From NCBI GenBank assembly GCA_964487745.1, contig CAZASG010000002.1, positions 46,360-110,359 of the forward strand: 64,000 nt of DNA, given 5' to 3'. Of this stretch, positions 6,287-42,690 are shown piece by piece. The position numbers and the translations under genes are program-made. The first letter of the stretch is position 1. The number at the start of each line of letters is the position of its first letter. The stretch comes from an uncultured Anaerolineaceae bacterium. GTDB taxonomy: Bacteria > Chloroflexota > Anaerolineae > Anaerolineales > Villigracilaceae. The notes beneath the pieces were generated by a model that saw only the letters and a program-made list of their open reading frames with translations, did not search any database and was not told the DNA's origin.

Positions 6287-7065
6287 TGGCTAAACCCACC
6301 GTTGCCGTACATAAATTCTCGTCCTGTGATGGATGCCAACTCCAGATATTGAATATGGAAGATGAAATTCTCGATCTGGCAGAAGCCATCGACATCGCTT
6401 ATTTCCTCGAAGCAACCCGAGATTCCCGACCGGGGCCCTACGACATTTCCATTGTCGAAGGGTCGGTTACGACCGAACATGAGATCAAGCGCATCAAGAA
6501 GATCCGCCGTGAATCCGACCTGCTGATCGCCATCGGCACCTGTGCCACAGCCGGCGGTATTCAGGCGCTGCGTAATATCGCCGATGCGGATGAATATGCC
6601 AATATCGTTTATCCCCGCTCTGAATATCTGAGCTATTTGAAGCAGGCTGCGCCCATTTCCGAGTATGTACGCGTGGATATGGAGTTGTGGGGCTGCCCGA
6701 TCAACAAATACCAATTATTGGAAGTGATCGTTGCCCTGCTCCAAAATCGTCGTCCCGTGCTGCCGCAAACCAGTGTTTGTATGGAGTGTAAGCAGGCAGG
6801 CACGATCTGCGTGTTGGTGTCTGAGGGAGCACCCTGTATCGGTCCGGCAACCCAGGCCGGGTGTGGAGCGGTCTGCCCCACCAGCGGCCGAGGGTGTTAC
6901 GGATGTTTCGGTCCGGTCACCCAGGCAAATACCGAATCGCTCTCCGACATCCTGACATCGGTTGAACGCTACCCTGGCGAGACCCGTCAGCTCTTTAGTA
7001 ATATCAGCAACTTTGCGCCTGTCTTCCACGAAGCAGCGAAGAAACTTGAAGAGAAGGAGGCATAG
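6286..7065 (+). CDS. hydD: [NiFe]-hydrogenase group 3b delta (small, NuoB-like) subunit
   Basis: 259 aa. N-terminal SSCDGCQ, GTCATAGG and C-terminal Cys clusters are present. Its start overlaps the hydG stop (TAATG). Confidence 0.85.
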   Translation: MAKPTVAVHKFSSCDGCQLQILNMEDEILDLAEAIDIAYFLEATRDSRPGPYDISIVEGSVTTEHEIKRIKKIRRESDLLIAIGTCATAGGIQALRNIADADEYANIVYPRSEYLSYLKQAAPISEYVRVDMELWGCPINKYQLLEVIVALLQNRRPVLPQTSVCMECKQAGTICVLVSEGAPCIGPATQAGCGAVCPTSGRGCYGCFGPVTQANTESLSDILTSVERYPGETRQLFSNISNFAPVFHEAAKKLEEKEA

Positions 7066-7066
7066 T

Positions 7067-14900: not shown

Positions 14901-17900
14901 CACGTTTCTGGTGTCTTCATACAATATGCCGTTGTTTGGATCGGTATCATCGTCAATTATCAGAGTAACATCACTTCCTTCTGGCCAATCGTGTCCATGC
15001 ACTTCGGGATGAGATGGAACAGCATGCAGGGTGTAGTTATATATCGTTATCCCGAACATGGTGCTGTCATTGTCTTCATCCCACTCACTTGAATCAACCC
15101 AGGAACCGGGCTGAATATCAAAAGTTTGATCTTCCCAATTTTGATCACCGGGGACACTGAAATCCGCCATCCAGTCGCCGTTGGAGTCGGCAAGCTCATC
15201 GCGATTGATACAATCAAACTCACCACATACCCAAACGCCGATCCAAGTATCTGGAGTAGCAACGCCATAGACCTGATCCGTATGAACATCGACATCTGTG
15301 ATCGCCATATTGGTCACAAGCAATTCTTTGGTTATATTTCCATCTGTGACCGTAACAAAATCGCCGACCTTGAGATCATAGGCATCCCAAAGTTCAAACT
15401 GGAACCAGGTCTGTTCCGGATTCCAATCGGCATATCCAACGGTTCTCGTGTCTGTATAATCCGGGTTCTCTGGTGTAGCAGGGTCATCGATCTCAAGGGT
15501 AACGACTACACCTTCATCCCAATCCCAACCTTCGATATTGTCATGATTCGCGCGTGCACCTATCGTAGGATTCATGATATGGATACCCGCCATGGTCGAA
15601 TCGCCATCTTCATCGTTTTGTGAAGAATCGATCCAGGTGCCGGGGACAATATCCCGGGTATCCTGCTCGTCATCTTCTATACCGGGATTGGCAAAATCAG
15701 CCGTCCATTGCCCGCCACCATCCGCATAGACGTGGCGATTTGTGCAGCCCTGATCGCCACATATCCAGATATCCACCCGACTGTCAGGATCGGCGGTACC
15801 ACTCACTATATCCGTATCCACATCCGCGTTATCCATCGTCAGACTGGTGACGGTGTGTACTTTCGTCACACTGCCATCGGAAGCCGTGACTACGTCGCCC
15901 GGTTTTATATCGTAGATATCCCATAATTGAAAATCCAAGGTGGTTTGGCTAGGGTCCCAGTGCGCTTCAATAACTTCTCCTGAAGCCGTATGATCGGGGG
16001 CCTCTGGCGTCGCAGGGTCATCAATCTCGATGTCGACAATTGCCCCAAGCTCCCATTCCCAACCTTCAATACGATCTTCTGCAGGTCGAATACCAAGCTG
16101 CGGATTGGCTATCTTCCAAAAGTATTGAGTGTCAGTGTTGTTTTCTCCGTGGATGATCAAGCCACCCTCGCTACCCAATTGAATATCAAAAGGTTGCTCA
16201 CAAAGAGGGTCGGAAACATTTATTGTCCAGTCACCGGTTCCTGAAACAGTTGTGGAACATCTCTCCCCTTGTCCTGTCCAAGTATATGCTTCTACTATTT
16301 CCCCAGGCGTTGCAGTACCTGTGAAAGTATCGGTTTCAGGATTAATATTGGTTACATCCAAATGATATACAACATGTTCTTTTGTTGTATTCCCGTCTGA
16401 GACAGTCACCAAATCGCCAGGCTGAATTTCGTATTGATCTCCCGGAGCAAACAGGGCGAATGTCTCATCACCATTGAGTACTTGATCCACCCAAGCAGAG
16501 GCTGAGTAATCAACTCCTACGCCATTATCCGGATCATCTATCGTAAGGGACAACTCAGCGCCAAAGGGCCAATAACTGCAATGGATTTCCTGATAGTTGA
16601 TAACAACCTGTACTTGAGGGTCTTCTGGAACCCACCAGAAATAGACCGTGCTATCACCGTCTGCATCCATCTGGCCTGCACCTCCACCAACTGAAGGGGC
16701 GAGATCGCAGGGGTTGAAATCAGCAGTCCAGTTTCCATTTTGATCTGCGATGATCTCAGAGTTACAGGAATGCTCTTCATGTAACCAAGCTTGTACTGCG
16801 GTTCCAGCTACCGCTGTCCCGCTGACTGTATTCAAATCCGCATTAATTTCGGTAACATTGAGATCGGTAATGAGCAATTCCTTGGTCGTTGTCGTACCAG
16901 TCACTGTTACAAAATGACCGGGTTGCAAATCGAAACTCCCTAGGCGAAATTCCTTAACGCCAACAGAGGGATTCCAATCTGCGGGGCCTACTTCACCACT
17001 ATCAGAATACAGAACCCCGTTGAGAGGATCAGTATCATCATCGATTGTTAGGTCAACTATTTCTCCAAAAGCCCAATCTCGGACATCAATCCAGTCTTCT
17101 TCAGAATCATTGGGATGTGCCCATACTTCGGGCTGCAATATCTGCCAATATTGTTGCGTGCAATCCCCGTCTTCATCACATTGATTGGCTTCACTACCCA
17201 TTCCTGGAGTTAGATCAAATGTATCCTGTTCGTCATCATCTTCGCCGGGAATGGAAAAATCTGCTTGCCAATCACCATTCACATCAGCAATCTCCCGGCG
17301 GAAGCCATAGCAGCCAGATTCATCACAATGGATGTGGCCGATATTCACTTCGGAACCGGGCTCTGCTGTCCCTGAAACGGTATCAGTTTCCGGATCAGCG
17401 TCTGTTACGATGAGTTGGGTAACGGTATGTATCTTCGTGACTGTCCCATCGGTCATCTCAACAATTTGTCCGGCTTGAAGAGTCCAGCTTTCATTAAATG
17501 AGAAGCGTACAAAAGTCTGGTTGGGATCCCAATCTGCAATCTCGACTGTCTGTATATCGGAGTAAGTGCCATCGATAGTCAAGGTAACCTCTGTACCATC
17601 CGACCACCCATAGCCATGTATTTCGTTTTCCTGTAAGCGCGCTGAGAATGATGGGTCGTATTCAGGGGAGGTATTCCAGTTTTCCAGCGTTAATCCTGCT
17701 GCTGCGACCATCTCACGTGCAAAACCATAATCCGCATCAACTGCTGAAGTTATCCCCTCCCAGCCGTACGAATCACCGCTGCCAACTGAATTCCACCAAT
17801 CACCTGTTTCAGCAAAGGACAATAGGGCAGTTTCGATTTGCGCGCGGCTAACAGATGGAAAATCAGGGCCGAAAGCAATACCATCATGTGGAATTTTCTC

Positions 17901-19481: not shown

Positions 19482-19504
19482 TTTGTCCCTCCCATGGACA
19501 TTTA

Positions 19505-19534
19505 ATATAAAAACCGACCACAAAGGGCCGGTTT
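19505..19534 (-). terminator. terminator-like hairpin plus U-run inside the leader of the giant gene (possible attenuator)
   Basis: The minus strand reads AAACCGGCC-CTTTGT-GGTCGGTTT followed by TTATATT. This is a 9-bp stem with one G-U pair, ending about 25 nt before the ATG at 19481. Confidence 0.35.
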
Positions 19535-20362: not shown

Positions 20363-23300
20363 TTATTGTGAGCCCTGGTTTGCTTTGAATTGATAGGGCA
20401 TGATCCGGCGGAACCAGATATCGCTGCTGCCATTGCCTTCCTGCAACCAGGTTGAATAGAAGCGAGTCCCATCGGGGGTCATGCGCAGTTGCGCTTCACC
20501 CTGCTCTTCATCGCCCTTGGCGAGCGCTGCCCAGCGTGTGACCACTTCACCAGCATAATTCCCATCACTGTCAGGGTTTACTTCCCAAGTGGAAAATTGG
20601 TAGCTATTCCCTCTGTTTTGGGTGAAGGTGTAGTACAGGTCCAATGGAGCCGGCATCTCCGGTACCACTGTGCTGTCACCATGTTCGATTGGTGGATTGG
20701 TCGACGTGCCGTAGCTTACGTAGAAGACATTCTTGTTCTGCTTGTCTTCAGCCCTCCCGGTCCAGACACCATTTACCTTGATTGTTCCAGGAGCTGCAAC
20801 GATACGTGGCTCGATCACGGTTTCCTTGTTATTAGCCAGTTGGGACATATTCCGCATCTGCTCAAATTCTCCCGGCCCGTATTGATTACAGATCTCTGTT
20901 TTCTCTTTTGTGAGCGGATCGGTGAAGGTGTCGCAGGTCTCATAAACTTCATTCGGATCCATGGTCGGATCAGTGGTCCATGTCTGACCTCCATCAAACG
21001 AGCGCCGGATAAAGAGGTCATACTTATCATTGCCATTCCGTGCAGCTGCCCAGTTGGGTGTATAGGTGAAGCCCATCACTATAAAGTCACCGCGGATTTG
21101 GCCGCGATGCGCACGGGAATCATCGTAAGGATTGGCAGACGAGGAATCATTCAGGTTGCCCGGTCCCTGTTGCCACTTCACCACTTTGACAGCACCGTAT
21201 GGATCTTCAGCAATTGGATCGCCCATCGAGGGCGTTACTTCCGTCGGCGTGACTGAGCTCATATTCTGAACACCAGCGACACAAACTTCTTCTCCATTAG
21301 CCGCAGTCTCCCACGCATCGCAGACAAAATTCTCAAAAGCATAGGGGTTACCCTTAGATGAAGCAACAACGCGGCGCAGCATGGTGTCCGCTTGATGTCC
21401 TTTGCCCTCCTGTCCTTCCCTGTAGAGAACTAGCATGACCGTTCTTGAATCCCCTATCGCACCCTTGCCCTGCATAACGAAGCGCGGGCGACGGGCATTT
21501 TCGTAGGCTAGCTGCGGCCGTCCCAGGTAGTCCAGAAGTTGTTCGCCAGTTTCAGGATTTATTATGTAGACCAGATTCCCGTTTTCGTCGCGCTCAGGCA
21601 AGTTCATGATATTGCCTGCACTGACCACTTCAGGATTCTGGAAATCAAAGCTGTGGTAGATGGCGTTCTTGCCCACATCTGGAGATTCATCGTCACCATA
21701 GGGGCCACCATCGGGCACATGGCCTGGGTCACCGAGACCTACGCCCTTGGTTTCTTCGTATGCCATGATCGCCCATGCGCTCTTGGTACCATCTGGCTTG
21801 GTATAAGCTTGCAGGAAGACATTCGGGCGTGATGCGCCGGTGTCCCCGTCGAGCAACCTGCCATCTTCAGTTATACAAACGCGCTTCAAAGCACCTTGAT
21901 TATTGGTGAACTCATAAAAGTTCTCACACAAACCAGGGACTTTATAGGCATAGTTATGTGCGCCTGTGGAATCATCCTCTGTTGCAGGGATATAAGGGTA
22001 GCCTTCATAAGGATAGTAAGCTTCAATTTCATCCTTCCAGATAGCTCCTTTGCTATTGCACTCTGCCACTTTGGCATTTATATCAAGGCCTGGCATAACT
22101 GGAATAACACGGTCACGAGGCACCACATTGTTGTAGTGGCAACTTACACAATCGGCATTTGTAAAGCCTCCCAAGTATTCGGGAATCGTCGCGTCCACCA
22201 CCACAAGCGGTATCGGAGCCCCTTGAGTGGGAGTGTGGATATCATGTGGCTCCAAGCCAAATGGTACATGGCAATTTGTGCAATTCTTCGTTGAAAGATG
22301 GTCAGCTGGCAATGTGGAAGGCAAAGCATGATAGGTAGCAGCTTCTGTGGAATCACGCTCTACAATCGTCTCGCCACCTTCAAACTTAACACAACTTGTC
22401 AGATTCTCAGCTTCGTAAGAGATGGCAGATGTATCAGATGTTGAGCTAACATTATCTGTTGGGATAAACTCACCATTCTCATCCAGAACGGGATAACCAT
22501 CCTCATCCAGCTCTACCTTCATATTATCGGTATTAACCGCAGCATTGTCTGTGATACGCACCGGCATCGCCATCGGCACAAGTGCTTTCGGGCGTCCGGT
22601 AACATCGAGTTCATGTTGAGGATCTCCACCGGAGACAAAGTTCGCATCGATCTTGCTGAAATTCGACATGGTAATGTAGCTATACCAGATATCGGTCTTG
22701 TGATTGGTTGTTGCGCCGCCCCACCCAGGTCCGGGTCCAGCAGCCTCACCGGGGCGCAGCCCCTCCGGGTCTTCTTGCCAGGTAATAGCAAACCCGGCGC
22801 CATCTGCAGCACCTATAAATATCTGATTGGCATCACGCCGTCCGGATGTTAAACGTTCAGGCTTGAACCAGACAATATCGCCAACAACTTTGTCTGCCCA
22901 GTAGCCACCACTATTGATCATCTTATCAGTAACAACAGTGCCGCGCGCCACCCAAACACAGCTGTAGGGGATTTCACCAACTTCAGGGAAACCAATATCG
23001 GTGTAGTCGATAGACCGTTGCGGTCCGCCAACACCCCAGGTGTCACCTTCATAGTAGGCATCATCGTAGGGATAATCATCATCTGGATCGATCGCGTATC
23101 TGGGCTTGCCACCGTTACAGAATTTGCTTGTCCATGCCACCAAAATATTGTTCCCCTTAACCTGGAAGACAGGCTTCTTCGCCTGACCAAAATATTCCAT
23201 ACCATTTTCCAAGGTGAAGGATGTACGGTCTGCTGCACGGGACAAATTCATGCGCTTAAAGGTATACCCATCATCACGTGAAATACCAGCAAAGATATCC

Positions 23301-25621
23301 TCGTATCCTGTTTCTTCCACGCCGTCCGTGTAGACTACGACAATGGGTTTGGCTTCATCAGATGTACGAATAAGTTCCCCATTTTCATCAAAGTATTCGA
23401 TAGTCTGGGCATCACCATTTGCTCGAAGTGCCGGGAACCAGACACCCATGATATTCAATTTGGACTTGGAACTTGTCAGTTCCGGTGTTCTCGAGACACC
23501 CCTGCGGTGCATATTGGCATTTATGGAGCGGTCCAGATTAGCTATGGCGTCGTCTGCTGAGACTGAGACCAGAGGAGCCACACCAGCACACTGATTAATC
23601 GTTCCCTGGATCACTGCCTCGACTTGAGCGTCATTGGCAAAATCAACACCTGACAACCCAAGCAGTGCAACTGTCTGATCTAGGCAACCTGTAATCTCAT
23701 CAGTGATGCTAATGCCATCTTTGGGGCTGGCATCAACATCCAGGCTTTGGAGTAAGCGTGCCATATTGATCACGCGTGGATCATCAAGATCGCCATTCTC
23801 GAAAATATCAAGAGGAGATATCTTCTGCTCTATAAGTGTGGAGCCTAAAAATACAGAACCGATGTTTAGGTCAACCGTTTCTCCGGGGAAGTAATCAAAT
23901 CCGCCGGATTCATCGGTCTTCCCGACATGCGTGGGTGTTTCAAAACTGACGCCCTCAACAGGTGAGTCGATAAAGTGAGCGCGTCGAGGGTGAGCCATTT
24001 CATATTTGATCCACCATGCCCAGCGTGCACCTTCAAAGGTGCCATCGCCATAAGCCCAGGCGCCTTCCTCTTCAATAACTCTGGGCTCTCCGGGGTTGGG
24101 CCCGCGCTCCTGCTCGCTCTCATCCAAAATCACCAGATCGGCATGGACGGCGATATTCTGAACGCGCAAGTACTCATAAGGCTGCCCCCAGCGGAAACCA
24201 AGGTCTTCTTCCATATCTAAAACCAGGAAGTAACGATCAACTGGATCAGGATATTCTTCCTTGATGGGGAAATGTCCCTGAACCGGGTTCCCGCTCTTGG
24301 AAGTTGGCACCGGATCAATACCGTAATAAACCTGGATCGTATTGATCAACCAGGCGCCGTTCAATTCGACCCGAATAAAGAGTTTGTCGCGTGAGTTCCA
24401 AACTGCAACTACGCCAGCGGGATTTTCAAAATCCTGCCCGGCGATCAATGGGGTCACAAAAAGACCCGGTCCCGCAGGCGGGAACCCCGGATCCGTATTA
24501 TTATCCCAAAGGAAGTCCGGTGATTTACTGTTGATCGTGGGTGTAGCGGGCAAGCCATCGGAATTATGGACATCGCCATTCTTTCCTTTAGGAGCGTCAA
24601 CGGTAAAGTTGAACTCGGCATACCAGCTATCAAAGTCATCTTCCCAGGGGCGCACGAACCATGTGTAGGTATCGTTAGATAATGCGACCGCAGGTTCAAA
24701 TGCACAAAGACCATCCAAGCAGATCACATCGCTACCAACAGCATACCAGCCCAAAAGCACGTCATCCCCTTTGCTGTCGACAACGTTAACCTGATACTGG
24801 ACTGCACCAAGGGTTTCTTCCCAATAGAATGCGGGAGTATTACTTGTAAGCAATTCCCCGTTGAGGGGGGAGATGAGTACCGGATCCGCCTCGGGATCGG
24901 TATCTGCTTCTGTTTCAGGAGCAGGTTCCGGGTCCGGAGCGGCTTCGGGTACTATCCATCCCGCCAATGTGCCGTCATTATCTTCATCCCACTGTGTGGC
25001 AACAGCCCAAGAGCCAGCCAGAAAATCGTAGGTAACCTGGCTCTCATCACTGAAATCGGAGAGCCAGTTCCCACCAAGATCGGCTAGCGCCTCGCGACTA
25101 CCATGACAACCATCTTCCCAACACCCCCAAAGCTCCAATGCGCTTTCAGGCGCGGCAACGCCAGAAACCACGTCGGTTTCTAAATCGACGTTTGTAATAG
25201 ACAAGGCAGTAACTACATGTTTTTTTGTGGTAGCACCATCACGGAGGATGATCTCAAAGCCGGGTTGAATATCAAAAACATCAGTGAGATCAAAGACCAG
25301 TTTCGTATACCCTGCATTGTCATCGACAACCATAGCAGATGTGGAATAGTCTTCTTTTTTCTTTGTGTCAGGGTCATCAATGATGAGGGTTACAACTGTT
25401 TCAAGCCCCCAATGATAAGTGTATATCTGGTCATGTGCTGCGTTGACCAAAAAGCCAATTTCTTCAGGAATCGCTTCATCAAAAGGTTGGCCTGGGCCTT
25501 CGACAACCTGTAAGGCTGTATCTGTAACTGCTGTCTGCGCTTGTACAGCCTGTGTCGGAAATGATCCGAACAGCAGTACAAATACTGCCACAATAGACAG
25601 TAATCTATTAATATTTTTCAT
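20363..25621 (-). CDS. large exported multidomain protein (1,752 aa): one repeat module, several beta-sandwich domains, and an Asp-box (BNR-like) core with a di-CXXCH insertion
   Basis: Start set at MKNINRLLSIVAVFVLLFGSFPTQAVQA/QT (ATG at 25621; GAGGAGA 6 nt upstream). Asp-box motifs are SRDDGYTF and SFDGGQTW (20978-21001). The core from about aa 750 to the end aligns by eye with ORF 29879-33850. Confidence 0.85.
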   Translation of the reverse strand: MKNINRLLSIVAVFVLLFGSFPTQAVQAQTAVTDTALQVVEGPGQPFDEAIPEEIGFLVNAAHDQIYTYHWGLETVVTLIIDDPDTKKKEDYSTSAMVVDDNAGYTKLVFDLTDVFDIQPGFEIILRDGATTKKHVVTALSITNVDLETDVVSGVAAPESALELWGCWEDGCHGSREALADLGGNWLSDFSDESQVTYDFLAGSWAVATQWDEDNDGTLAGWIVPEAAPDPEPAPETEADTDPEADPVLISPLNGELLTSNTPAFYWEETLGAVQYQVNVVDSKGDDVLLGWYAVGSDVICLDGLCAFEPAVALSNDTYTWFVRPWEDDFDSWYAEFNFTVDAPKGKNGDVHNSDGLPATPTINSKSPDFLWDNNTDPGFPPAGPGLFVTPLIAGQDFENPAGVVAVWNSRDKLFIRVELNGAWLINTIQVYYGIDPVPTSKSGNPVQGHFPIKEEYPDPVDRYFLVLDMEEDLGFRWGQPYEYLRVQNIAVHADLVILDESEQERGPNPGEPRVIEEEGAWAYGDGTFEGARWAWWIKYEMAHPRRAHFIDSPVEGVSFETPTHVGKTDESGGFDYFPGETVDLNIGSVFLGSTLIEQKISPLDIFENGDLDDPRVINMARLLQSLDVDASPKDGISITDEITGCLDQTVALLGLSGVDFANDAQVEAVIQGTINQCAGVAPLVSVSADDAIANLDRSINANMHRRGVSRTPELTSSKSKLNIMGVWFPALRANGDAQTIEYFDENGELIRTSDEAKPIVVVYTDGVEETGYEDIFAGISRDDGYTFKRMNLSRAADRTSFTLENGMEYFGQAKKPVFQVKGNNILVAWTSKFCNGGKPRYAIDPDDDYPYDDAYYEGDTWGVGGPQRSIDYTDIGFPEVGEIPYSCVWVARGTVVTDKMINSGGYWADKVVGDIVWFKPERLTSGRRDANQIFIGAADGAGFAITWQEDPEGLRPGEAAGPGPGWGGATTNHKTDIWYSYITMSNFSKIDANFVSGGDPQHELDVTGRPKALVPMAMPVRITDNAAVNTDNMKVELDEDGYPVLDENGEFIPTDNVSSTSDTSAISYEAENLTSCVKFEGGETIVERDSTEAATYHALPSTLPADHLSTKNCTNCHVPFGLEPHDIHTPTQGAPIPLVVVDATIPEYLGGFTNADCVSCHYNNVVPRDRVIPVMPGLDINAKVAECNSKGAIWKDEIEAYYPYEGYPYIPATEDDSTGAHNYAYKVPGLCENFYEFTNNQGALKRVCITEDGRLLDGDTGASRPNVFLQAYTKPDGTKSAWAIMAYEETKGVGLGDPGHVPDGGPYGDDESPDVGKNAIYHSFDFQNPEVVSAGNIMNLPERDENGNLVYIINPETGEQLLDYLGRPQLAYENARRPRFVMQGKGAIGDSRTVMLVLYREGQEGKGHQADTMLRRVVASSKGNPYAFENFVCDAWETAANGEEVCVAGVQNMSSVTPTEVTPSMGDPIAEDPYGAVKVVKWQQGPGNLNDSSSANPYDDSRAHRGQIRGDFIVMGFTYTPNWAAARNGNDKYDLFIRRSFDGGQTWTTDPTMDPNEVYETCDTFTDPLTKEKTEICNQYGPGEFEQMRNMSQLANNKETVIEPRIVAAPGTIKVNGVWTGRAEDKQNKNVFYVSYGTSTNPPIEHGDSTVVPEMPAPLDLYYTFTQNRGNSYQFSTWEVNPDSDGNYAGEVVTRWAALAKGDEEQGEAQLRMTPDGTRFYSTWLQEGNGSSDIWFRRIMPYQFKANQGSQ
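22136..22282 (-). other. two CXXCH (haem-c attachment) motifs 44 residues apart
   Basis: CTNCH is encoded by the complement of 22268-22282 and CVSCH by the complement of 22136-22150. Context: STKNCTNCHVPFGLEPHDIH...FTNADCVSCHYNN. Confidence 0.55.
24953..25438 (-). repeat. ninth copy of the repeat module, located in the neighbouring protein
   Basis: WGLETVVTLIIDDPDTKKKEDY...DIQPGFEIILRDGATTKKHVVTALSITNVDLETDVVSGVAAPESALELWGCWEDGCHGSREALADLGGNWLSDF...TQWDEDNDGT. Confidence 0.7.
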
Positions 25622-26338: not shown

Positions 26339-26992
26339 TTAAATAAGCCCTTCCTTTTTGGCGTATAAAACCGCTTCCTGACGTTTTTCAAGGTGAAGCT
26401 TTGTTAAAATTTTTCGCATGTGGCTTTTTACAGTATGGATACTCAAATTAAGGGTCTGTGCGATTTCCTTGTTGGTCTGCCCCGCTGCAACATGCTCCAA
26501 GACTTCTTGCTCGCGTGCCGTCAAGGTGGCGGGGTTGGTAATGGACGTATCTATTGCATGCTTGCTGATCCGTCGGAACTCTGCCAACATGCGCCCCCCC
26601 AATGTTCGCGTAATGGCTGCTTCATCACGCATTGCCCCTCGCAAAGAGGCAAGCAACTCACGCGAGCTGACATTCTTAAGCAGGTAGCCTTGCGCTCCAT
26701 TTCGGATCGCTTCAAAAACATTTTCGTTTTCATCGTTGACTGTGAGCATGACGATGGTAACATCCGGTAATTCTTTTTTTATACGCTGGGTTGCTTCCAA
26801 GCCATCACAAACCGGCATTGTGACATCCATTAAAATCAGGTCCGGAGATAATTCTTCAGCTTTAACAATGGCCTCCAAGCCATCCGCTGCTTCTCCCACT
26901 ACTTCAAAATCAGGTTGCCCTGCCAAAATATTCACCAGCCCTTCACGAAAAAGCAGGTGATCATCGACGAGTAATACACGTGTTTTAGACAT
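26339..26992 (-). CDS. NarL/FixJ-family response regulator (receiver + LuxR-type HTH)
   Basis: MSKTRVLLVDDHLLFREGL...PDLILMDVTMPVCDG..., with a C-terminal LTAREQEVLEHVAAGQTNKEIAQTLNLSIHTVKSHMRKIL. The start overlaps the kinase stop by 8 nt. The upstream extension in the ORF track is rejected. Confidence 0.85.
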   Translation of the reverse strand: MSKTRVLLVDDHLLFREGLVNILAGQPDFEVVGEAADGLEAIVKAEELSPDLILMDVTMPVCDGLEATQRIKKELPDVTIVMLTVNDENENVFEAIRNGAQGYLLKNVSSRELLASLRGAMRDEAAITRTLGGRMLAEFRRISKHAIDTSITNPATLTAREQEVLEHVAAGQTNKEIAQTLNLSIHTVKSHMRKILTKLHLEKRQEAVLYAKKEGLI

Positions 26993-29489
26993 AATCATCC
27001 CCTTCCATAAAAATCTCCGGCATATAAACAAATCCATCCAAAGCAAGATAATCTGGGTCCTCATCCAACATCCACGATAATTGGACTCTTGTTCCAAGAC
27101 CGGGTTCTGAGGCAAATTCCAGATGGGCACCCAAGCGTGTAGCACGCGCGTTCATGAGCTTTATCCCAAAATGGTTTCCATTTTGGGCATGTACATGGGT
27201 CGTATCAAACCCAATCCCGTTATCTTCCACTTTAATAATCACTTTTTCATCGAGTTGCTCCCCTGAAATATGTACTTTTGTCGCTTGGGCGTGTTTGCGA
27301 ATATTTACGATCGCTTCTTGTACAATAGGTGTTAGTTGTGCTACTTGAGCAGGGGGCAATACCAAAGGTGCTGTGAAAGAGAAACTTGTATCAAAAAGAA
27401 TTGAATTTTCTTCAGAAGCTTCCTCCGCCAAGGCAGCAAGCAACTCCTGGAGTGTTTTTCGGGGTTCCGGTATTTTCTGCAAGCTGGCAATGGATTTACG
27501 CACATCCAGAGATGCTATGTCGACGGTTTTCCGAATTTCTTCCAAGGCTTCAATTCCACCCCCGTTTTTATCGGAAGGAAATAGTTGTGTAACCTGATCA
27601 ATCTTTAACCCGAGCAAGCTTATCGTCTGCGCCAAGCCATCGTGCATATTTGCAGCGATCCGCTGACGTTCTTCCAACGCTGCCGCCCATTCCAATTGCT
27701 TATGGAGATAAGCGTTTTCCAAAGCAACAGATGTATGAGAGACAAAACTCTCGACAAGTTCAATATCTTTTGAGCGCCAAGGCTTTCCATCTGATCCATC
27801 CAAAACAAAAAGATTAATGATCTTCTTGCCACGCTTCCAGACCCGTGTGCAGAGGAGAGAACGGTTGCCTAACCCCTCTTGCCAATGACGCGGTATGCAT
27901 TTGTCTTGGGCAATATTTTCAATCACTATAGAAGCTTTCGTGCGACATAACGCATCAAATAAATGGCCATCATTAGGGCTTATTGCCATGGCCGCCTTCA
28001 TGTCCAGATCAAAACCTTCACTGGCGATCCAGGACAAAACTCCCTTTTTCTTATTCCATGATAGGAGACAGGCAGCTTCCCTTCCGGTTAGTTTAATTGA
28101 CTGAGCGATAATTTCTCTAGTGATCTGATCCACATCAAGCGTGGAACCAAGTTTGATACCTGCCTGATGCAAAGTGCTCAATTCCTCAGCCCATGCTTCA
28201 GCTTCTTGATAGAGATAGGCATTTTCGACGGCCATCCCGACCTGATTACACATACCAGCCAGCAGGTCCAAAGTCGTTTGCTCCAAAGGTTCCGCCTGTT
28301 GTGAGCCAAGTGCAATTGCCCCAACGATCTGATCCTTTGCGATCAGAGGCGCTCCCATCAAGGTACAAATGATTTCTTTCTCAAGATGGATGCTTCCATG
28401 TGCTGCTTTATCATCGAGGGGCTCACTGATAACCTGCCTGCTATCAACCGCTTGTTGCGCAATGAATCTATATGGGCATTTATCCGCTGCGCATAAATCC
28501 AGATCATCTTGTGACAAGCTTCCTCGATAAGCCCCCAATAACAAATTCTGACTCTTTTGATTGATTAGAAAGATCACGCCTACATCCATCGAAAGCACAG
28601 GGAGCATTTTGTCCAAAGCAAGGTCTAATACTGTTTTCAGGTCAAGAGATTGGCTGAGCGAATCCGCAATCTCATTTTGGGCAACCAACATAGCTGTTCG
28701 TTCATCAACCAAATCTTCAAGGTGATCGCGATACTCATCCAACTCTTCTTCCGTTTTTTTCTTTTCAATGGACATCTCTTTCAAGTACACAAAACCGAAG
28801 ATGGGTATTGCCAAGATATGGAAAGTGTTGCTTATTGGACAGAGGAAATAATTGTATGCTTGATTCGTTGTATAGCTTGCCAAGCGTATAATTTCGCTGA
28901 TTAAAAAGAAACCCAATGCGACGCTGACGAGAGATCGCAACCAATCGCGTTTCCTGGCCAAGACAAAGATCGCAGCCGCGATCAGGACAAAAGAAAGGAT
29001 ATGAAAAGCCCGGGCTTCCCATGTTTCACTGAATTTAGCACCGGGGTTGAGATTAGAGAATTTAGGCCAGGTGATATAAGTTATTAGAAAAACCGTAACT
29101 ATTATTGATAATCCAACCTGTAGATAGCGGCGGGATATGCCTTCGTCGTCCAATGCATATCGCAGGAAAGCTCCCGCAACAACGATCAGCGCAGCCACCT
29201 CCAGACCGTGTTCCAAAGGATGATAATAAATATCTTCGCCTCCCCCTGTTATTTGCCAAACGGTCAATCCGAACATCATTAATTCGCGCGTCAATGCCAA
29301 ACCAAATCCCCAGATGAGTAATTTTTCACGCGGCAAATGCTGGCTTTTCTGACGTGTCCAGGCAATAGCCAGCAGCACCAACCAAAAGGCTGATGCTAAA
29401 CCAAAACGCACCAAATTATTCTCGGCAGGACCCGGTCCACCGGAAAATTGTTTAATCGCTAAGATAAAAAAATCCCCAAAGGTTTCCAT
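26985..29489 (-). CDS. sensor histidine kinase: about 7-8 TM segments, GAF domains, HisKA_3 and HATPase_c
   Basis: 834 aa with a hydrophobic N-terminal third and GAF-like central repeats. The NarX-type H-box is ERQRIAANMHDGLAQTIS. The ATPase motifs are EAIVNIRKHA, VEDNGIGF and GIKLMNARA. Confidence 0.85.
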   Translation of the reverse strand: METFGDFFILAIKQFSGGPGPAENNLVRFGLASAFWLVLLAIAWTRQKSQHLPREKLLIWGFGLALTRELMMFGLTVWQITGGGEDIYYHPLEHGLEVAALIVVAGAFLRYALDDEGISRRYLQVGLSIIVTVFLITYITWPKFSNLNPGAKFSETWEARAFHILSFVLIAAAIFVLARKRDWLRSLVSVALGFFLISEIIRLASYTTNQAYNYFLCPISNTFHILAIPIFGFVYLKEMSIEKKKTEEELDEYRDHLEDLVDERTAMLVAQNEIADSLSQSLDLKTVLDLALDKMLPVLSMDVGVIFLINQKSQNLLLGAYRGSLSQDDLDLCAADKCPYRFIAQQAVDSRQVISEPLDDKAAHGSIHLEKEIICTLMGAPLIAKDQIVGAIALGSQQAEPLEQTTLDLLAGMCNQVGMAVENAYLYQEAEAWAEELSTLHQAGIKLGSTLDVDQITREIIAQSIKLTGREAACLLSWNKKKGVLSWIASEGFDLDMKAAMAISPNDGHLFDALCRTKASIVIENIAQDKCIPRHWQEGLGNRSLLCTRVWKRGKKIINLFVLDGSDGKPWRSKDIELVESFVSHTSVALENAYLHKQLEWAAALEERQRIAANMHDGLAQTISLLGLKIDQVTQLFPSDKNGGGIEALEEIRKTVDIASLDVRKSIASLQKIPEPRKTLQELLAALAEEASEENSILFDTSFSFTAPLVLPPAQVAQLTPIVQEAIVNIRKHAQATKVHISGEQLDEKVIIKVEDNGIGFDTTHVHAQNGNHFGIKLMNARATRLGAHLEFASEPGLGTRVQLSWMLDEDPDYLALDGFVYMPEIFMEGDDYV

Positions 29490-29878: not shown

Positions 29879-32800
29879 GTGAAAAGACAAATCTATAAAA
29901 CAATTGGTGTGGTATTGCTCTTGTTTATTCTGGTCACTACAGTTTTTGCCGATGATGGAACTATTTTCAGGAGAAATGTCTCTGGTACTCCGCACGAGGA
30001 AACAGAGCATGCGTCGATTAAAATGCTGCCGGTCTACGTTCCTGCTCAAGCTTCAGATGGAACACTATTGACCGAAGGTATAGATATCATAGATGCAGAT
30101 GGAGCACTAGTCGAGACCCGTTTTGATGTCCAGCCGCTGATCGTACACTACAATGATGGACACGTAGAAACCATTGATGTAGACGGCTACGGTGGCTTCC
30201 CGGGACACGGAGAGCGCGATGCATTTGCCGGGGTCAGCCTGGACGGCGGTGCAACATGGAAGACCACTAACCTATCCAACTCTGCCGACCGGTCTTCCTT
30301 TAAAATCAAGCTGGGCGGGAGAAAAAAATTCCCCTATCCAGGTGATGTTGGACGTTCCTTCATGGCCTCGGACGGCAATCAGGTACTTATCGTCTGGGTA
30401 AGCCGATTTGCTGGTGGAGGTAATCCGAACTATGCAATGAGCGATGAAGAGCGAAGCCTGGTCGCAGATTATCTGGCAGGAACAGGCGCGATCCCAGATG
30501 CTTCAGCATGCACCGACGGTGACCTTATCGGAACTCCCTGCATCTACCTGGAGGATCATTTCAGCGTGGCTGGTTCGCAGGGTTCATCAGATCTCGCCGA
30601 CGAAGGCTACCCGCTGATCGGTGAGCTGCCTTACGCTGCCCTCTGGGTGGCTCGCGGTGTGATCATGCCGCCTGCAGCAGAAGGCGAGGCCAGCACGTTC
30701 GTCTGGTTCAAGGCCGAACGCTTGAGCTCAGCTGTACGTGATGCCAACCGACCGGAAGCATCCTGCGTCAAGGGCGCCGGATGTGTCGTCACCTGGCAAG
30801 AAGATCCTGATGGGATTCGCCCTGGCTCAGGTGATGGGCCTGGCGAGGGCTGGAGCGGGGCTATTGCCCACCACCAGACCGACACCTGGTACTCTTATAT
30901 CGACTGGAACGACTTCAACCTGGTCAGCTTGGACGGGACCTATGGTTCTCTCCTCAATGATACCGGTGATCTTGCTGAATGGATTGCTGCCAATGATTCA
31001 GGCAGCCCTTCTGCCGCGATCCCTATGTCAATCCCGGTACGCCTTACAGATAACTCGATGTGTGTTGCTGCAGATGACAAGCCCTACTGTTATGCCGACT
31101 TTGACAATAGCGGAACCCCCGACTTCTGTGCCGATTCAACAATAGTCAGCATTGAGGTACCAGATGAAGGTGGAGAAGCGGTAGCACATGATGTCGATAT
31201 GTGTATCACCGAGGACGGACGCTTGATGCGTGGTAATACCGCCTCGACACGTGCACGGCTTGGTCTGAATGGTTACTCTTCTTTGGGCGACTATAGGGTT
31301 GATCCAGCAGCCTACCCGATCGACAGTGCCTGGTTTACCGTATCTTATGAGGAAAACAAGGGTCTTGGTGATGAAGGTGAGGATGAGGTTGTACCCGAAG
31401 ACCTTATTGAAAAAGTCGATATGGGCAAGAACGTCTGGTATCACACCTTCGATATGTTCAATCCCGAACTTGTCTCACAGGGCCTGATGCTTAACCAACC
31501 TGCTGTCTACCCGGAAGACTTTTCAAATCCCGAGGGCTTTTTAACTCAGGAAGCAAGCCTGGGCTATAACTTCTACACCATTGATCCCGATCCAATCTAT
31601 GAAGATCAGGCTAATCTCGATACTACACTTTACCAAACTGAGATATCCCGACGACCAAGCAAAATCACTCAGGACTGGTACGATGCTGGCGCCTCTGGCA
31701 CAGTAGCTTTCCAACTGTGGAAGCAAGGTATCATCCGGCGCGGCGGCCCCGCTGACATCATGGGACGGCGTTTTGTGATCCCGGATGAATTCGATGCGAC
31801 CACGGATAACCCTTATGACTACAACAACATGGTCTGTAACACATGGGCCTACACCGACGGATTGAACCCACGCTACGTCAAGGGTTTCTGTGCCGACCCG
31901 GCGATTAACCTTTCTGGCAACACTATCCTAACAAGTGAAAATTGTGGTGATGCTACTAGCTGTCTGGATGTTTACCCCTTCAATGACTACTACGATGATC
32001 TCGATATGACTGATCAAACTGATGGAGTCTCCAAGATATATACCTGGGAGATGGTCGGTCCTGGATATGGAGAGACGATAACGGATACAACTCTAACCAA
32101 TCTTGACGATCTCTCCTGGGAAAATCCCTATGATATGGCAAAGGGACACCGCGGCTTCCTGGCTGGTGACATGTTGATGGTGATGTACGGCTGGACGCCA
32201 AACTGGAACGACCTCCAGAACGGCCATTCCATCGTAAACCTGTATGTCCGGCGGTCGTTTGACGGCGGGCAGACCTGGAGTACCACACCAGGCAGTTTCA
32301 CCCACACCAACGGTATTACCTACAGCGGTGACGGGACAACCACCTGTGAGTGGATGGGACCAATTTCTGAACAGTACCCTGAGTGCGTGGATTATGGGGC
32401 AGGCGATTTCGAGCAAGCTCGCAACGTCTCCCAACTCGGTGGTTCTCAAGTGACAGTCCTCGACCCAAGATACTCACCGACGACAAGAAGCATCACTGAA
32501 GCATCGGTCAGCTCCGAATCGCTGCCTACAGGGTTTACCGCCCCGCTCTATCCCGATGATACCCGTGACCCCTCACGCTTCTTCATGGTCTATGAAACCG
32601 GTGAGACAAGCGCATATGACGCTGGCGAAGCCACCCCGCTTGACCTGTTCTACAGCAGGGCTATCGAGTGGGGCGACGAATACCTGGTATGGCAGGACGA
32701 AGCTACAGCAGATTGCTTGCCTGCAGCAGATACTGAAGATGAATTTGATTTGTCGGGTTTCTGCAACGAGTTTGATGCTCTCGAAGGAAGTCAGTTCGAC

Positions 32801-33850
32801 GAATCCGGTGAAGCCTCCGTAACCACCAACCCAGGCGGCACATTCTTCTATACAACCTGGAACCAAATTGACTTTGATCATGACGGTCACGAAATTCTCT
32901 CCGATGCTATATTCCGCCGTGTGCTGTTCATTGATGATTACATCCCTGGAGAAACAGAACCAAATGGAACGCCAAGCGTTTCGATCAATAGCCCGGCAAA
33001 TGGAGCAACCTTCGACTCAGGAACGACAATTACATTCAGTGCCACAGCTTCGGATCCGGAAGATGGTGACCTGAGCAACGAGATCGCGTGGGCTTCCAGT
33101 ATTGACGGCGCAATGGGCACAGGTGCAAGCCTTAGCGCAATGCTGAGCGATGGATCACACACCATCACGGCTACCGTGACAGACAGCGGAATGATCACCG
33201 AAATCGCTGAAGTCAGCATCACAGTTGAAGAAGAAGCACCTATAAATGAACCGCCAACCGTCTCGGTCAACAGCCCGGCAGATGGTGCGATATTCGCATC
33301 AGGCACGGAAATCACCTTCAATGGCACAGCCATTGATCTAGAAGATGGCGACCTGAGCGGCGCAATCGTGTGGGAAGACAACGGAGCCTATTTGAGTACT
33401 GGCGCAAGCTTTAGCGCAGTGCTGGGTGATGGTCCACACACGATCACTCTCACGGTGACTGATAGCGGTATGAATACCGCGAATGCTGAGATCAACATCA
33501 CAGTTGAAGATGCTGTCTCCACTGCCGCCATGCACGTTGCTACTCTGGAGGGCACGTCCATCTCAGTTAATTCTCAGATTTGGAAGGCCAGCATCAATAT
33601 TCAGGTTCTGGATGCCAACGGTGAAGCTGTTGCCAACACCCTGGTGAGCGGCTTATGGAGCAACGGCTATGTCGGTTCCACAAGCTGCACCACCGACGCA
33701 ATGGGTTGGTGTACCGTTCTAACCAAGGGAATCAAGGTTCGCACAACCCAGGAGGTAACATTCACAGTTACCGACTTGGCTGCAGCGGGCTACACCTATG
33801 ATGCAGCGGCGAACGTGGCTTCTGGAACAATCACAGTTGCCGCGCCGTAA
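29879..33850 (+). CDS. large exported Asp-box (BNR-like) protein (1,323 aa), paralogue of the 20363-25621 core, with 2 Ig-like repeats and a C-terminal beta domain
   Basis: GTG start with AAGGAG 7 nt upstream and the signal peptide MKRQIYKTIGVVLLLFILVTTVFA/DD. Asp boxes are SLDGGATW and SFDGGQTW (32255-32278). Shared blocks with the paralogue: WVARG, WFKAERLSS..RDAN, TWQEDPDGIRPG, TDTWYSYI, CITEDGRL, RRSFDGGQTW. Confidence 0.85.
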   Translation: MKRQIYKTIGVVLLLFILVTTVFADDGTIFRRNVSGTPHEETEHASIKMLPVYVPAQASDGTLLTEGIDIIDADGALVETRFDVQPLIVHYNDGHVETIDVDGYGGFPGHGERDAFAGVSLDGGATWKTTNLSNSADRSSFKIKLGGRKKFPYPGDVGRSFMASDGNQVLIVWVSRFAGGGNPNYAMSDEERSLVADYLAGTGAIPDASACTDGDLIGTPCIYLEDHFSVAGSQGSSDLADEGYPLIGELPYAALWVARGVIMPPAAEGEASTFVWFKAERLSSAVRDANRPEASCVKGAGCVVTWQEDPDGIRPGSGDGPGEGWSGAIAHHQTDTWYSYIDWNDFNLVSLDGTYGSLLNDTGDLAEWIAANDSGSPSAAIPMSIPVRLTDNSMCVAADDKPYCYADFDNSGTPDFCADSTIVSIEVPDEGGEAVAHDVDMCITEDGRLMRGNTASTRARLGLNGYSSLGDYRVDPAAYPIDSAWFTVSYEENKGLGDEGEDEVVPEDLIEKVDMGKNVWYHTFDMFNPELVSQGLMLNQPAVYPEDFSNPEGFLTQEASLGYNFYTIDPDPIYEDQANLDTTLYQTEISRRPSKITQDWYDAGASGTVAFQLWKQGIIRRGGPADIMGRRFVIPDEFDATTDNPYDYNNMVCNTWAYTDGLNPRYVKGFCADPAINLSGNTILTSENCGDATSCLDVYPFNDYYDDLDMTDQTDGVSKIYTWEMVGPGYGETITDTTLTNLDDLSWENPYDMAKGHRGFLAGDMLMVMYGWTPNWNDLQNGHSIVNLYVRRSFDGGQTWSTTPGSFTHTNGITYSGDGTTTCEWMGPISEQYPECVDYGAGDFEQARNVSQLGGSQVTVLDPRYSPTTRSITEASVSSESLPTGFTAPLYPDDTRDPSRFFMVYETGETSAYDAGEATPLDLFYSRAIEWGDEYLVWQDEATADCLPAADTEDEFDLSGFCNEFDALEGSQFDESGEASVTTNPGGTFFYTTWNQIDFDHDGHEILSDAIFRRVLFIDDYIPGETEPNGTPSVSINSPANGATFDSGTTITFSATASDPEDGDLSNEIAWASSIDGAMGTGASLSAMLSDGSHTITATVTDSGMITEIAEVSITVEEEAPINEPPTVSVNSPADGAIFASGTEITFNGTAIDLEDGDLSGAIVWEDNGAYLSTGASFSAVLGDGPHTITLTVTDSGMNTANAEINITVEDAVSTAAMHVATLEGTSISVNSQIWKASINIQVLDANGEAVANTLVSGLWSNGYVGSTSCTTDAMGWCTVLTKGIKVRTTQEVTFTVTDLAAAGYTYDAAANVASGTITVAAP
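32972..33535 (+). repeat. 2 x 282-bp tandem coding repeat (94-aa Ig-like units)
   Basis: PSVSINSPANGATFDSGTTITFSATASDPEDGDLSNEIAW...HTITATVTDSGM... versus PTVSVNSPADGAIFASGTEITFNGTAIDLEDGDLSGAIVW...HTITLTVTDSGM... DNA identity by eye is roughly 70-75%. Confidence 0.7.
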
Positions 33851-35174: not shown

Positions 35175-35177
35175 ATG

Positions 35178-36728: not shown

Positions 36729-36737
36729 GGCTGCTCC

Positions 36738-38435: not shown

Positions 38436-38457
38436 TTATTTTACGCTAAATTAGCGT

Positions 38458-40987: not shown

Positions 40988-40996
40988 CGGAACCTC

Positions 40997-42687: not shown

Positions 42688-42690
42688 CAT

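What the first reader, a model, noticed from the sequence alone, without database searches (positions are those of the whole stretch)
21878..22543. About 220-aa insertion with two CXXCH haem-c motifs inside one Asp-box paralogue only
Between the conserved blocks PVRITDN and CITEDGRL, the 1,752-aa protein has about 220 residues. Its paralogue has about 58. The extra segment contains CTNCH (comp. 22268-22282) and CVSCH (comp. 22136-22150), 44 residues apart, with nearby His residues (EPHDIH) that could act as distal ligands. A dihaem cytochrome-c unit embedded in a secreted beta-propeller-type protein would imply extracellular redox chemistry or electron transfer. That would be notable next to a giant surface protein.
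Basis: seen in the sequence. Interest (0 to 1): 0.65.

Follow-up and report, generated by a model that had tools for sequence, protein, structure and literature searches.

The report
Two-haem cytochrome module inside surface propeller
A secreted sialidase-shaped protein of an Anaerolineales-like bacterium carries a conserved, undescribed insert of about 160 residues with two haem-c attachment motifs, which most likely makes it an extracytoplasmic redox protein.

Summary
The 1,752-aa protein (window 20363-25621, minus strand) has 222 residues between PVRITDN and CITEDGRL. Its paralogue (29879-33850, +) has 49, not 58. CTNCH and CVSCH sit exactly where stated. Shuffles of the insert give two such motifs with P = 4e-5.

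Both proteins belong to NCBIfam 'choice-of-anchor O' (COAO), a sialidase-type Asp-box propeller of unknown function. Against close orthologues without it, the true insert is a discrete cassette of about 160 aa.

Of the 120 best family members, 50 carry the cassette, all with both CXXCH. The other 70 lack it cleanly. In a more distant COAO branch the two half-units occur in reverse order in a different loop, next to rubredoxin-like inserts. Desulfoluna limicola has a stand-alone secreted copy.

In four Desulfobacterota genomes the cassette lies within 10 kb of a conserved heptahaem membrane cytochrome.

Invariant residues are six Cys, three His and one Lys. H1108 and K1079 are the ligand candidates.

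No curated cytochrome family or solved fold matches. Haem attachment and the genome's maturation system remain untested.

Verdict: probable new dihaem c module, a new variant of a known kind, of moderate to high interest.

The parts
20363..25621 (-). Gene for the 1,752-aa secreted choice-of-anchor O (COAO) protein that carries the module
   Evidence: ORF. NCBIfam NF040591 scores 599.5 bits against a cut-off of 125, split into two stretches by the insert. Orthologues of 94%, 70% and 68% identity start at the same Met.
25535..25621 (-). Sec-type signal peptide (MKNINRLLSIVAVFVLLFGSFPTQAVQA|Q), with no twin-arginine
   Evidence: Read directly from the sequence and conserved in orthologues. No signal-peptide predictor was run.
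24782..25489 (-). N-terminal domain (aa 45-280), homologous to a repeat found at least 8 times in the neighbouring giant protein
   Evidence: BLASTP 31-37% identity, E from 1e-11 to 2e-31.
22544..23524 (-). First part of the sialidase-like Asp-box propeller (aa about 700-1026), ending in strand PVRITDN
   Evidence: AlphaFold model with pLDDT 79.9 and pTM 0.80. Foldseek hits to sialidases, GH93 and PL24 propellers at E about 1e-5, probability 0.97-1.0. Asp-box SRDDGYTF at aa 781.
21878..22543 (-).
21962..22459 (-). Core module (about aa 1055-1220) that is cleanly absent from module-less orthologues
   Evidence: Alignment A1. All-or-none distribution, 50 with and 70 without.
22256..22414 (-). 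Alpha unit: C1077-V-K1079-F beta-strands, invariant H1108, CTNCH (C1114, C1117, H1118; nt 22268-22282)
   Evidence: Invariant columns in 52-62 sequences.
21986..22225 (-). Beta unit: PLVVVD, YLGGFTN1155, CVSCH (C1158, C1161, H1162; nt 22136-22150), VPRDR, C1188, W1195, AYYPYEGYP
   Evidence: Invariant columns.
20366..21877 (-). Second part of the propeller (aa 1249-1752), starting at CITEDGRL
   Evidence: Asp-box SFDGGQTW at aa 1541.
26339..26992 (-). LuxR-type response regulator (Response_reg + GerE)
   Evidence: Start at MSKTRV. The same kinase and regulator pair lies next to the orthologue in L012.
26985..29489 (-). GAF-HisKA_3 histidine kinase
   Evidence: A histidine kinase and regulator pair flanks COAO genes in every locus examined.
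29879..33850 (+). Module-less COAO paralogue (1,323 aa) with C-terminal Ig/PKD domains
   Evidence: NF040591, 671 bits.

Best explanation
The insert is an autonomous module of about 160 residues made of two half-units. Each half-unit carries one CXXCH.

Proposed steps, all inferred:
- After Sec export, a cytochrome c maturation system covalently attaches two c-type haems. One is at C1114/C1117 with H1118 as proximal ligand. The other is at C1158/C1161 with H1162.
- The only other invariant potential ligands, H1108 and K1079, supply one or both distal ligands.
- C1077 and C1188 form a disulfide that staples the two units.

The module sits in a loop of a sialidase-type Asp-box propeller (choice-of-anchor O family). 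It acts as a short electron relay between an external or membrane redox partner and whatever the propeller binds.

Shown: the sequence anatomy, the conservation, the all-or-none distribution, the alternative architectures and the gene neighbourhoods. Inferred: haem attachment, ligand identity, the disulfide, and the direction and purpose of electron flow.
For: - Two CXXCH occur at P = 4e-5 by shuffling.
- Both motifs are present in all 50 module-bearing proteins among the 120 best family hits. They are absent, together with the whole module, from the other 70.
- An exhaustive phmmer search of 1.84 billion representatives with the insert found 20 hits at E up to 0.001. Fourteen span the motif region: thirteen have two CXXCH, and the fourteenth, fragment P0001, ends at the start of the second motif. 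The other six match only the flanks or short parts of the module (P0028, P0029) and have no CXXCH. All seven tested (P0020-25, P0027) are COAO proteins.
- Across 62 modules in two architectures, the invariants are exactly six Cys, three His, one Lys, plus N, P and W.
- A second architecture has beta-alpha order in another propeller loop, and there is a stand-alone secreted copy in Desulfoluna limicola. Both show the module is an independent unit.
- Scanned one by one, 20 of 22 modules hit Cytochrom_c3_2, 20 hit Cytochrome_C7, 19 hit Paired_CXXCH_1 and 16 hit the MtrC/MtrF domain, with best E from 3e-5 to 4e-4. Zinc-ribbon models hit only 2-3. The weak PDB hits are mostly NrfA haem sites.
- In the models, the first CXXCH lies in a short helical turn in both. 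The second lies in a helix only in the module-only model.
- The protein has a Sec signal peptide and no Tat motif.
- The stand-alone copy is 0.9 kb from a heptahaem, multi-transmembrane cytochrome. Its 46%-identical orthologue sits beside COAO-dihaem genes in other Desulfobacterota, together with a split-Soret-like cytochrome.
- Of 80 genomes with that heptahaem gene, 4 have the module within 10 kb. These are among the 8 loci most similar to the query (plain tblastn).
- Sister COAO proteins carry rubredoxin-like inserts scoring up to 90 bits. This points to redox function in the family.
- Anaerolineales genomes rich in multihaem cytochromes have been reported (PMC7399161).
Against: - No curated cytochrome family reaches its gathering score.
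- There is no significant sequence or fold match to any solved cytochrome.
- AlphaFold confidence over the module is low: mean 62 when modelled alone, and about 44-58 over most of it in context.
- There is only one invariant extra His for two haems.
- The 64-kb window has no other c-type cytochrome and no Ccm/Ccs gene. The rest of the genome could not be examined.
- Orthologues at about 73-75% propeller identity do without the module, so the propeller's basic function does not need it.
- The cytochrome neighbourhood is seen only in Desulfobacterota, not in the Anaerolineales loci.
Confidence: 0.65

Rival explanations
1. The two CXXCH motifs do not bind haem. They form a structural or redox-active metal site, such as a Cys4 or Cys/His Zn or Fe knuckle pair like a rubredoxin or zinc ribbon, or they form disulfides that stabilise a large surface loop.
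For: CXXC...CXXC is also the signature of zinc ribbons and rubredoxins. Sister COAO proteins do carry true rubredoxin-like inserts nearby. A few modules give weak zinc-ribbon hits (Zn_ribbon_Thio2 3 of 22, DnaJ_CXXCXGXG 2 of 22). No cytochrome family passes threshold, and the module models poorly.
Against: His directly follows the second Cys in both motifs in every one of more than 60 sequences, whereas rubredoxin and zinc knuckles typically have Gly there (general knowledge). Cytochrome models are hit by 16-20 of 22 members against 2-3 for zinc ribbons. The first CXXCH is modelled in a helical turn, not a beta-hairpin knuckle, in both models; the second only in the module-only model. The module clusters with c-type cytochromes.
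Confidence: 0.17
2. The module binds two haems, but at least one is catalytic rather than a relay. That haem would be five-coordinate or Lys-ligated, as in NrfA-type or peroxidase-type sites. The protein would then be an extracytoplasmic haem enzyme whose propeller only positions the substrate.
For: Only one invariant spare His (H1108) and one invariant Lys (K1079) are available for two haems. The weak PDB hits are mostly NrfA nitrite reductases.
Against: The matches to NrfA are at motif level only, with E from 0.6 to 3.4. They align canonical CXXCH sites, not the CXXCK site. No substrate channel can be assessed without coordinates.
Confidence: 0.15
3. The motifs are a chance or lineage-specific feature of a variable loop and have no function.
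For: The loop is highly variable in length across the family, and close orthologues lack the segment.
Against: Shuffling gives P = 4e-5. The motifs and ten further residues are invariant across several phyla and across two architectures. The segment also exists as a stand-alone gene.
Confidence: 0.02

Closest known systems
Quinohaemoprotein dehydrogenases and cytochrome cd1 nitrite reductase (beta-propeller enzymes with a covalently fused cytochrome c domain)
   Same: A beta-propeller and a c-type haem domain share one exported polypeptide. The proposed logic is intramolecular electron transfer between the haem and a site on the propeller. This comparison rests on general knowledge.
   Different: Those have 8-bladed PQQ or d1-haem propellers with a class I monohaem domain at a terminus. 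Here the propeller is a sialidase-type Asp-box fold. The haem unit is a dihaem module with no detectable similarity to class I cytochromes, and it is inserted inside a propeller loop. No propeller cofactor is known.
Small multihaem cytochrome modules (Pfam Cytochrom_c3_2, Cytochrome_C7, Paired_CXXCH_1, MtrC/MtrF domains II/IV)
   Same: Closely spaced CXXCH motifs in a segment poor in regular secondary structure. These families are recurrent weak hits for 16-20 of 22 modules.
   Different: Every hit is below the gathering score and centred on the motif itself. The module has a beta-sheet core (CVKF, TIVE, YHAL strands). It has only one spare invariant His, and it is found only inside or next to COAO proteins.
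NCBIfam NF040591 choice-of-anchor O proteins and sialidase-like Asp-box propellers (GH33, GH93, PL24/25)
   Same: The host protein is a clear member of NF040591. It has Asp-boxes, and its model matches sialidase-type propellers.
   Different: The family model does not include the module, so the match is split in two. No source annotation or precomputed Pfam hit in the hit tables flags a haem or cytochrome feature. No paper on haem in this family or in Asp-box propellers was found. Structural similarity to characterised glycosidases is weak (TM 0.1-0.15 on the query), and catalytic residues were not examined.

Membership tests
c-type cytochrome (covalent haem via CXXCH) | CXXCH motif(s) present | tested here: met
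   CTNCH at aa 1114 and CVSCH at aa 1158.
c-type cytochrome (covalent haem via CXXCH) | Motifs conserved in homologues | tested here: met
   50 of 50 module-bearing proteins in the top 120 family hits, plus 8 proteins with the permuted order, keep both motifs.
c-type cytochrome (covalent haem via CXXCH) | Export by Sec so that the apoprotein meets the maturation system | tested here: met
   N-terminal signal peptide without a twin-arginine motif, read directly from the sequence and conserved in orthologues. No predictor was run.
c-type cytochrome (covalent haem via CXXCH) | Cytochrome c maturation system (Ccm or CcsBA/ResBC) in the same genome | not testable with these tools
   None is encoded in the 64-kb window. 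Other Anaerolineales carry many multihaem cytochromes (PMC7399161).
c-type cytochrome (covalent haem via CXXCH) | Covalently bound haem demonstrated | not testable with these tools
   Needs haem staining, spectroscopy or mass spectrometry.
Curated cytochrome c families (Pfam Cytochrom_C, c3_2, C7, Paired_CXXCH_1, CCP_MauG, NapB and others) | Score at or above the family's gathering threshold | tested here: not met
   For the window's insert the best E is 0.02-0.1 and the bits are below the cut-offs. Among 22 homologues the best E is 3e-5, still a motif-level match.
Solved dihaem or multihaem folds | Significant sequence-profile or fold match to a PDB cytochrome | tested here: not met
   The profile search gives a best E of 0.17, with NrfA at 0.6-3.4. 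Foldseek on the module model gives no hit at E up to 0.001. The model is of low confidence, so the fold test is weak.
NCBIfam NF040591 choice-of-anchor O | Whole-protein score above the curated cut-off (125 bits) | tested here: met
   599.5 bits for the window protein and 671.3 bits for the paralogue.
Sialidase-type Asp-box beta-propeller | Asp-box motifs (S-x-D-x-G-x-T-W) | tested here: met
   SRDDGYTF at aa 781 and SFDGGQTW at aa 1541. Pfam BNR gives a weak hit in the paralogue.
Sialidase-type Asp-box beta-propeller | Six-bladed propeller fold | tested here: inconclusive
   Foldseek probability is 0.97-1.0 and E about 1e-5 to sialidases, GH93 and PL24. However, TM is only 0.10-0.15 and rmsd is large because of the big inserts. 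Blades could not be counted without coordinates.
Sialidase-type Asp-box beta-propeller | Glycosidase catalytic residues (Arg triad, Tyr/Glu, Asp) | not tested
   Sequence identity of 7-14% to solved sialidases is too low for a reliable residue mapping without coordinates.

The most novel reading that the evidence does not exclude
Choice-of-anchor O proteins are an unrecognised class of extracytoplasmic oxidoreductases built on a sialidase-type propeller. They acquire interchangeable cofactor cassettes in surface loops: this dihaem c module in either unit order, and rubredoxin-like domains. They are wired to membrane multihaem cytochromes and switched on by a dedicated two-component system. That would link respiratory electron flow to a substrate held by a carbohydrate-enzyme-like fold.
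Probability: 0.3. Interest if true: 0.8.

Novelty: new variant of a known kind. Interest (0 to 1): 0.6.

Why it matters
If haem binding is confirmed, this defines a new dihaem cytochrome c domain family. It would also be the first redox-cofactor-bearing members of the sialidase-type Asp-box propeller superfamily, which is otherwise known for glycosidases, lyases and binding proteins.

The module occurs in bacteria labelled Anaerolineae/Chloroflexota, Desulfobacterota, Verrucomicrobia, Gemmatimonadales and Krumholzibacteriia. Most are metagenome-assembled genomes. In Desulfobacterota it clusters with membrane multihaem cytochromes. It may therefore mark an unrecognised extracytoplasmic electron-transfer reaction in these bacteria.

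It also gives a first functional handle on a large family (more than 1,000 detected homologues) currently annotated only as 'choice-of-anchor O' or hypothetical. Three cultured carriers make it directly testable: Desulfosarcina alkanivorans, Desulfoluna limicola and Desulfoprunum benzoelyticum.

Tried and rejected
- EPHDIH histidines as distal ligands: rejected. They are replaced in P0011, P0001 and many others.
- Met at position -2 of the first motif as ligand: rejected. It is Lys in the window protein and Gln in P0037.
- Simple in-place circular permutation: rejected. The beta-alpha version sits in a different propeller loop, after AYEETKG rather than after PVRITDN.
- Functional link to the neighbouring giant protein: not supported. 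The 70% orthologue's locus has purine genes there instead.
- Fold identification of the module: Foldseek against the PDB gave nothing at E up to 0.001. The profile search against PDB sequences gave only motif-level NrfA hits.
- Pfam on the insert gave only sub-threshold hits.
- Looking for Ccm/Ccs genes: none in the window. No tool lets me scan the rest of the source genome or a named assembly.
- The look-up of encoding contigs for P0002 returned 'not on record'. I recovered the locus through genome contigs instead.
- Literature searches for haem-bearing Asp-box or sialidase propellers, or for choice-of-anchor O function, found nothing relevant.
- The preprint on modular evolution of multihaem cytochromes does not mention propellers, sialidase or rubredoxin.
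- Model coordinates are not exposed, so haem-pocket geometry, ligand distances and the face of the propeller carrying the module could not be measured.
Full report
**Observation.** The finding lies in a minus-strand gene, window 20363-25621. It encodes 1,752 aa starting MKNINRLL, with a typical Sec signal peptide. PVRITDN begins at aa 1020 and CITEDGRL at aa 1249, leaving 222 residues between them. The divergently placed paralogue (29879-33850, +, 1,323 aa) has 49 residues between PVRLTDN and CITEDGRL, not about 58. Two CXXCH arise in 4e-5 of shuffles of the insert and in none of 20,000 shuffles of the whole protein. No credible ORF elsewhere in the 64-kb window has the motif.

**The host protein.** Both paralogues are strong members of NCBIfam NF040591, 'choice-of-anchor O' (COAO), at 599 and 671 bits against a cut-off of 125. 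In the 1,752-aa protein the match is split in two by the insert. Pfam sees nothing in it. The two paralogues align at 31-34% identity on both sides of the insert.

An AlphaFold model of aa 700-1752, built from a 74-sequence alignment, has mean pLDDT 79.9 and pTM 0.80. Foldseek places it with sialidase-type propellers (trans-sialidases, KDNase, GH93, PL24 lyases) at E about 1e-5 and probability 0.97-1.0. TM-scores are low because of large inserts. Asp-boxes are present. The N-terminal 45-280 aa are homologous to a domain repeated at least eight times in the adjacent 3,523-aa protein.

**The insert is a discrete, optional cassette.** Orthologues of 94%, 70% and 68% identity keep both motifs. Other orthologues of 48-68% identity lack the segment cleanly, and this defines a cassette of about 160 aa, about aa 1055-1220.

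A profile search of the family returned 1,051 hits. Among the best 120, 50 carry the cassette, every one with both CXXCH 43-56 residues apart. The other 70 have neither cassette nor motif. Carriers are annotated as Anaerolineae/Chloroflexota, Desulfobacterales, Desulfobulbaceae, Verrucomicrobia, Krumholzibacteriia and Gemmatimonadales. The nearest genome-collection hits suggest the window is from an Anaerolineales-like Chloroflexota organism.

A quick neighbour-joining tree on propeller-only columns interleaves carriers and non-carriers in the Chloroflexota-like clade. This implies repeated loss or gain. The tree has no support values, so the count of events is uncertain.

**Anatomy and invariants.** The module has two halves.
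- Alpha unit: NLTxC1077-V-K1079-F, two or three short strands, L-P-x-x-H1108, then C1114xxC1117H1118-V-P.
- Beta unit: P-L-V-V-V-D, YLGGFxN1155xDC1158xSC1161H1162, VPRDR, C1188, W1195, AYYPYxGYP.

Across 62 modules the invariant side chains that could bind a cofactor are six Cys, three His and one Lys. Nor is the Met at position -2 of the first motif, which is Lys in the window protein. My reading, by inference, is two haem c groups on the two CXXCH, H1108 and/or K1079 as distal ligands, and a C1077-C1188 disulfide.

**Other architectures.** An exhaustive phmmer scan of 1.84 billion representative proteins with the insert found only 20 hits. Fourteen span the motif region: thirteen have two CXXCH, and the fragment P0001 ends at the start of the second motif. 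Eight of the thirteen have the units in beta-alpha order, 100-140 residues apart. The seven tested (P0020-25, P0027) are also COAO proteins. In the four whose intervening sequence I read (P0020, P0023, P0024, P0025), the module lies in a different loop, after AYEETKG and before GKNxYYH. Their PVRxTDN strand is flanked instead by one or two rubredoxin-like inserts. These score up to 90 bits on NCBIfam RubredRD and are also detected by Pfam Rubredoxin in L005.

Desulfoluna limicola ASN36 encodes a stand-alone 327-aa version: signal peptide, low-complexity linker, then the beta-alpha module. No propeller similarity was detected in the 16.6-kb locus fetched. The module is therefore an autonomous unit that has been placed at least three ways, always keeping both CXXCH.

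**Is it a cytochrome?** No curated family passes threshold for the window's insert. Scanned individually, however, 20 of 22 modules hit Cytochrom_c3_2, 20 hit Cytochrome_C7, 19 hit Paired_CXXCH_1, 18 hit Magnetochrome and 16 hit MtrC/MtrF domains, with best E from 3e-5 to 4e-4. Zinc-ribbon models are hit by 2-3. Seven of the eight weak PDB profile hits are NrfA haem sites, at E from 0.6 to 3.4.

The module-only AlphaFold model is mediocre, at pLDDT 62. Its best-predicted parts are the CVKF sheet and the region after the second motif. It puts both CXXCH in helical turns. The full-domain model confirms this only for the first motif. Foldseek finds no PDB fold for the module. In the full-domain model most of the module is below pLDDT 60, about 44-58.

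**Genomic context.**
- In the window, the gene is followed upstream by a LuxR-type regulator and a GAF histidine kinase, then the divergent paralogue. The same arrangement occurs in the 70% orthologue's contig.
- A kinase and regulator pair also adjoins COAO genes in Desulfosarcina alkanivorans, in a Desulfobacteraceae MAG and in a module-less Anaerolineae orthologue.
- The giant neighbour is not conserved.
- In Desulfoluna limicola the stand-alone module gene lies 0.9 kb from a 666-aa protein with a multihaem cytochrome domain and a hydrophobic C-terminal region read as multi-transmembrane. It is 46% identical over its full length to the 688-aa protein with seven CXXCH that sits beside COAO-dihaem genes in two Desulfobacterales MAGs. 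A split-Soret-like cytochrome lies there as well.
- I scanned the species-representative genomes with this heptahaem protein and then searched the 80 loci with tblastn. The module lies within 10 kb in four: Desulfoluna limicola, Desulfoprunum benzoelyticum DSM 28570, and two MAGs. In those two MAGs an alpha-beta COAO and a beta-alpha COAO flank the cytochrome gene. All four are among the eight loci most similar to the query.
- The Anaerolineales loci and the window show no such cytochrome.
- No Ccm/Ccs gene is in the window. The rest of the genome could not be searched.
- Published Anaerolineales genomes can be rich in multihaem cytochromes (PMC7399161).

**Interpretation.** The best-supported reading is a previously undescribed dihaem c-type cytochrome module inserted in a surface loop of a Sec-exported, sialidase-fold COAO protein, acting as a short electron relay (confidence 0.65).
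- The main rival is a non-haem Cys/His metal or disulfide site. It is disfavoured by the invariant His after both CXXC, by the cytochrome-only pattern of weak profile hits, and by the cytochrome neighbourhoods.
- A variant reading is that one haem is catalytic, because only one spare His and one Lys are invariant.
- Close orthologues lack the cassette, so it is an accessory to the propeller's basic function rather than a requirement.

**Novelty.** I found no literature on haem in Asp-box propellers or on COAO function. No database annotation in the hit tables flags the module. I rate it a new variant of a known kind: a c-type cytochrome module in a new fold context, with its own unrecognised domain family. 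The more novel possibility is that COAO proteins are a modular class of extracytoplasmic oxidoreductases. The rubredoxin-bearing relatives and the multihaem neighbours are consistent with this.

Noticed in passing
Proteins P0020, P0023-P0025 and P0027; locus L005 380-5107 (+): Distant COAO proteins with Sec signal peptides carry one or two rubredoxin-like inserts (NCBIfam RubredRD up to 90 bits; Pfam Rubredoxin 33 bits) flanking the PVRxTDN strand. They also carry the dihaem module in reversed unit order in the next loop, followed by a TKDLDxDxxxDRxDxC motif. An exported rubredoxin-like domain is unusual.
   Followed up: partly
L014 7653-8636 (+), Desulfoluna limicola ASN36 NZ_AP024488: A stand-alone secreted 327-aa protein consists of signal peptide, linker and the dihaem module. 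The name NCBI supplies covers only a 211-aa product starting at an internal Met, so the signal peptide is missed. A heptahaem, multi-transmembrane cytochrome gene lies 0.9 kb downstream (L014 9572-11572).
   Followed up: yes
L018 and L021 (Desulfobacterales MAGs), +/-10 kb around the heptahaem gene: One alpha-beta (A-type) and one beta-alpha (B-type) COAO-dihaem gene flank the same heptahaem-transmembrane cytochrome gene. A split-Soret-like cytochrome (L010 7015-7899) lies between.
   Followed up: partly
window 8952-19523 (-): The 3,523-aa secreted giant protein is a fusion of several ABC-type solute-binding domains (Phosphonate-bd, SBP_bac_5, Peripla_BP_6) with Ig/PKD domains and a post-COAP-1 domain. 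It contains at least 8 copies of a domain of about 190 aa also found at the N-terminus (aa 45-280) of the dihaem COAO protein.
   Followed up: partly
Proteins P0007-P0009 and P0011, aligned to window protein aa about 845-850 (window about 23072-23089): Several orthologues have a different mini-insert of about 30 aa with four Cys, including a CX3CH (CRITCH or CRVTCH), in an earlier propeller loop. The window protein lacks it. Its significance is unknown.
   Followed up: no
window 26339-29489 (-), and loci L008, L010, L012, L013: A histidine kinase and response regulator pair lies immediately next to COAO genes in every locus examined. The types differ: GAF-HisKA_3 with LuxR in two Anaerolineales-type loci, PAS/GAF-HisKA with an OmpR-type (Trans_reg_C) regulator beside the module-less Anaerolineae orthologue (L013), and PAS-HisKA with a sigma-54 activator in Desulfobacterota. 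This suggests dedicated regulation.
   Followed up: partly
window 4302-8353 (+): A four-gene cluster looks like a cytoplasmic NiFe hydrogenase (Fer4 dicluster, NAD-binding/DHODB Fe-S, Oxidored_q6 small subunit, NiFeSe large subunit).
   Followed up: no
window 21878-22543: The insert has lower G+C (0.455; core module 0.464) than the gene (0.501) and the window (0.497).
   Followed up: no
window 39932-49669 (-): A run of lipid or acyl-CoA-type genes: two AMP-binding ligases, three alpha/beta hydrolases, a thiolase, a KAS III-like enzyme and a short-chain dehydrogenase. It lies downstream of a branched-chain amino-acid ABC transporter (34092-39813).
   Followed up: no
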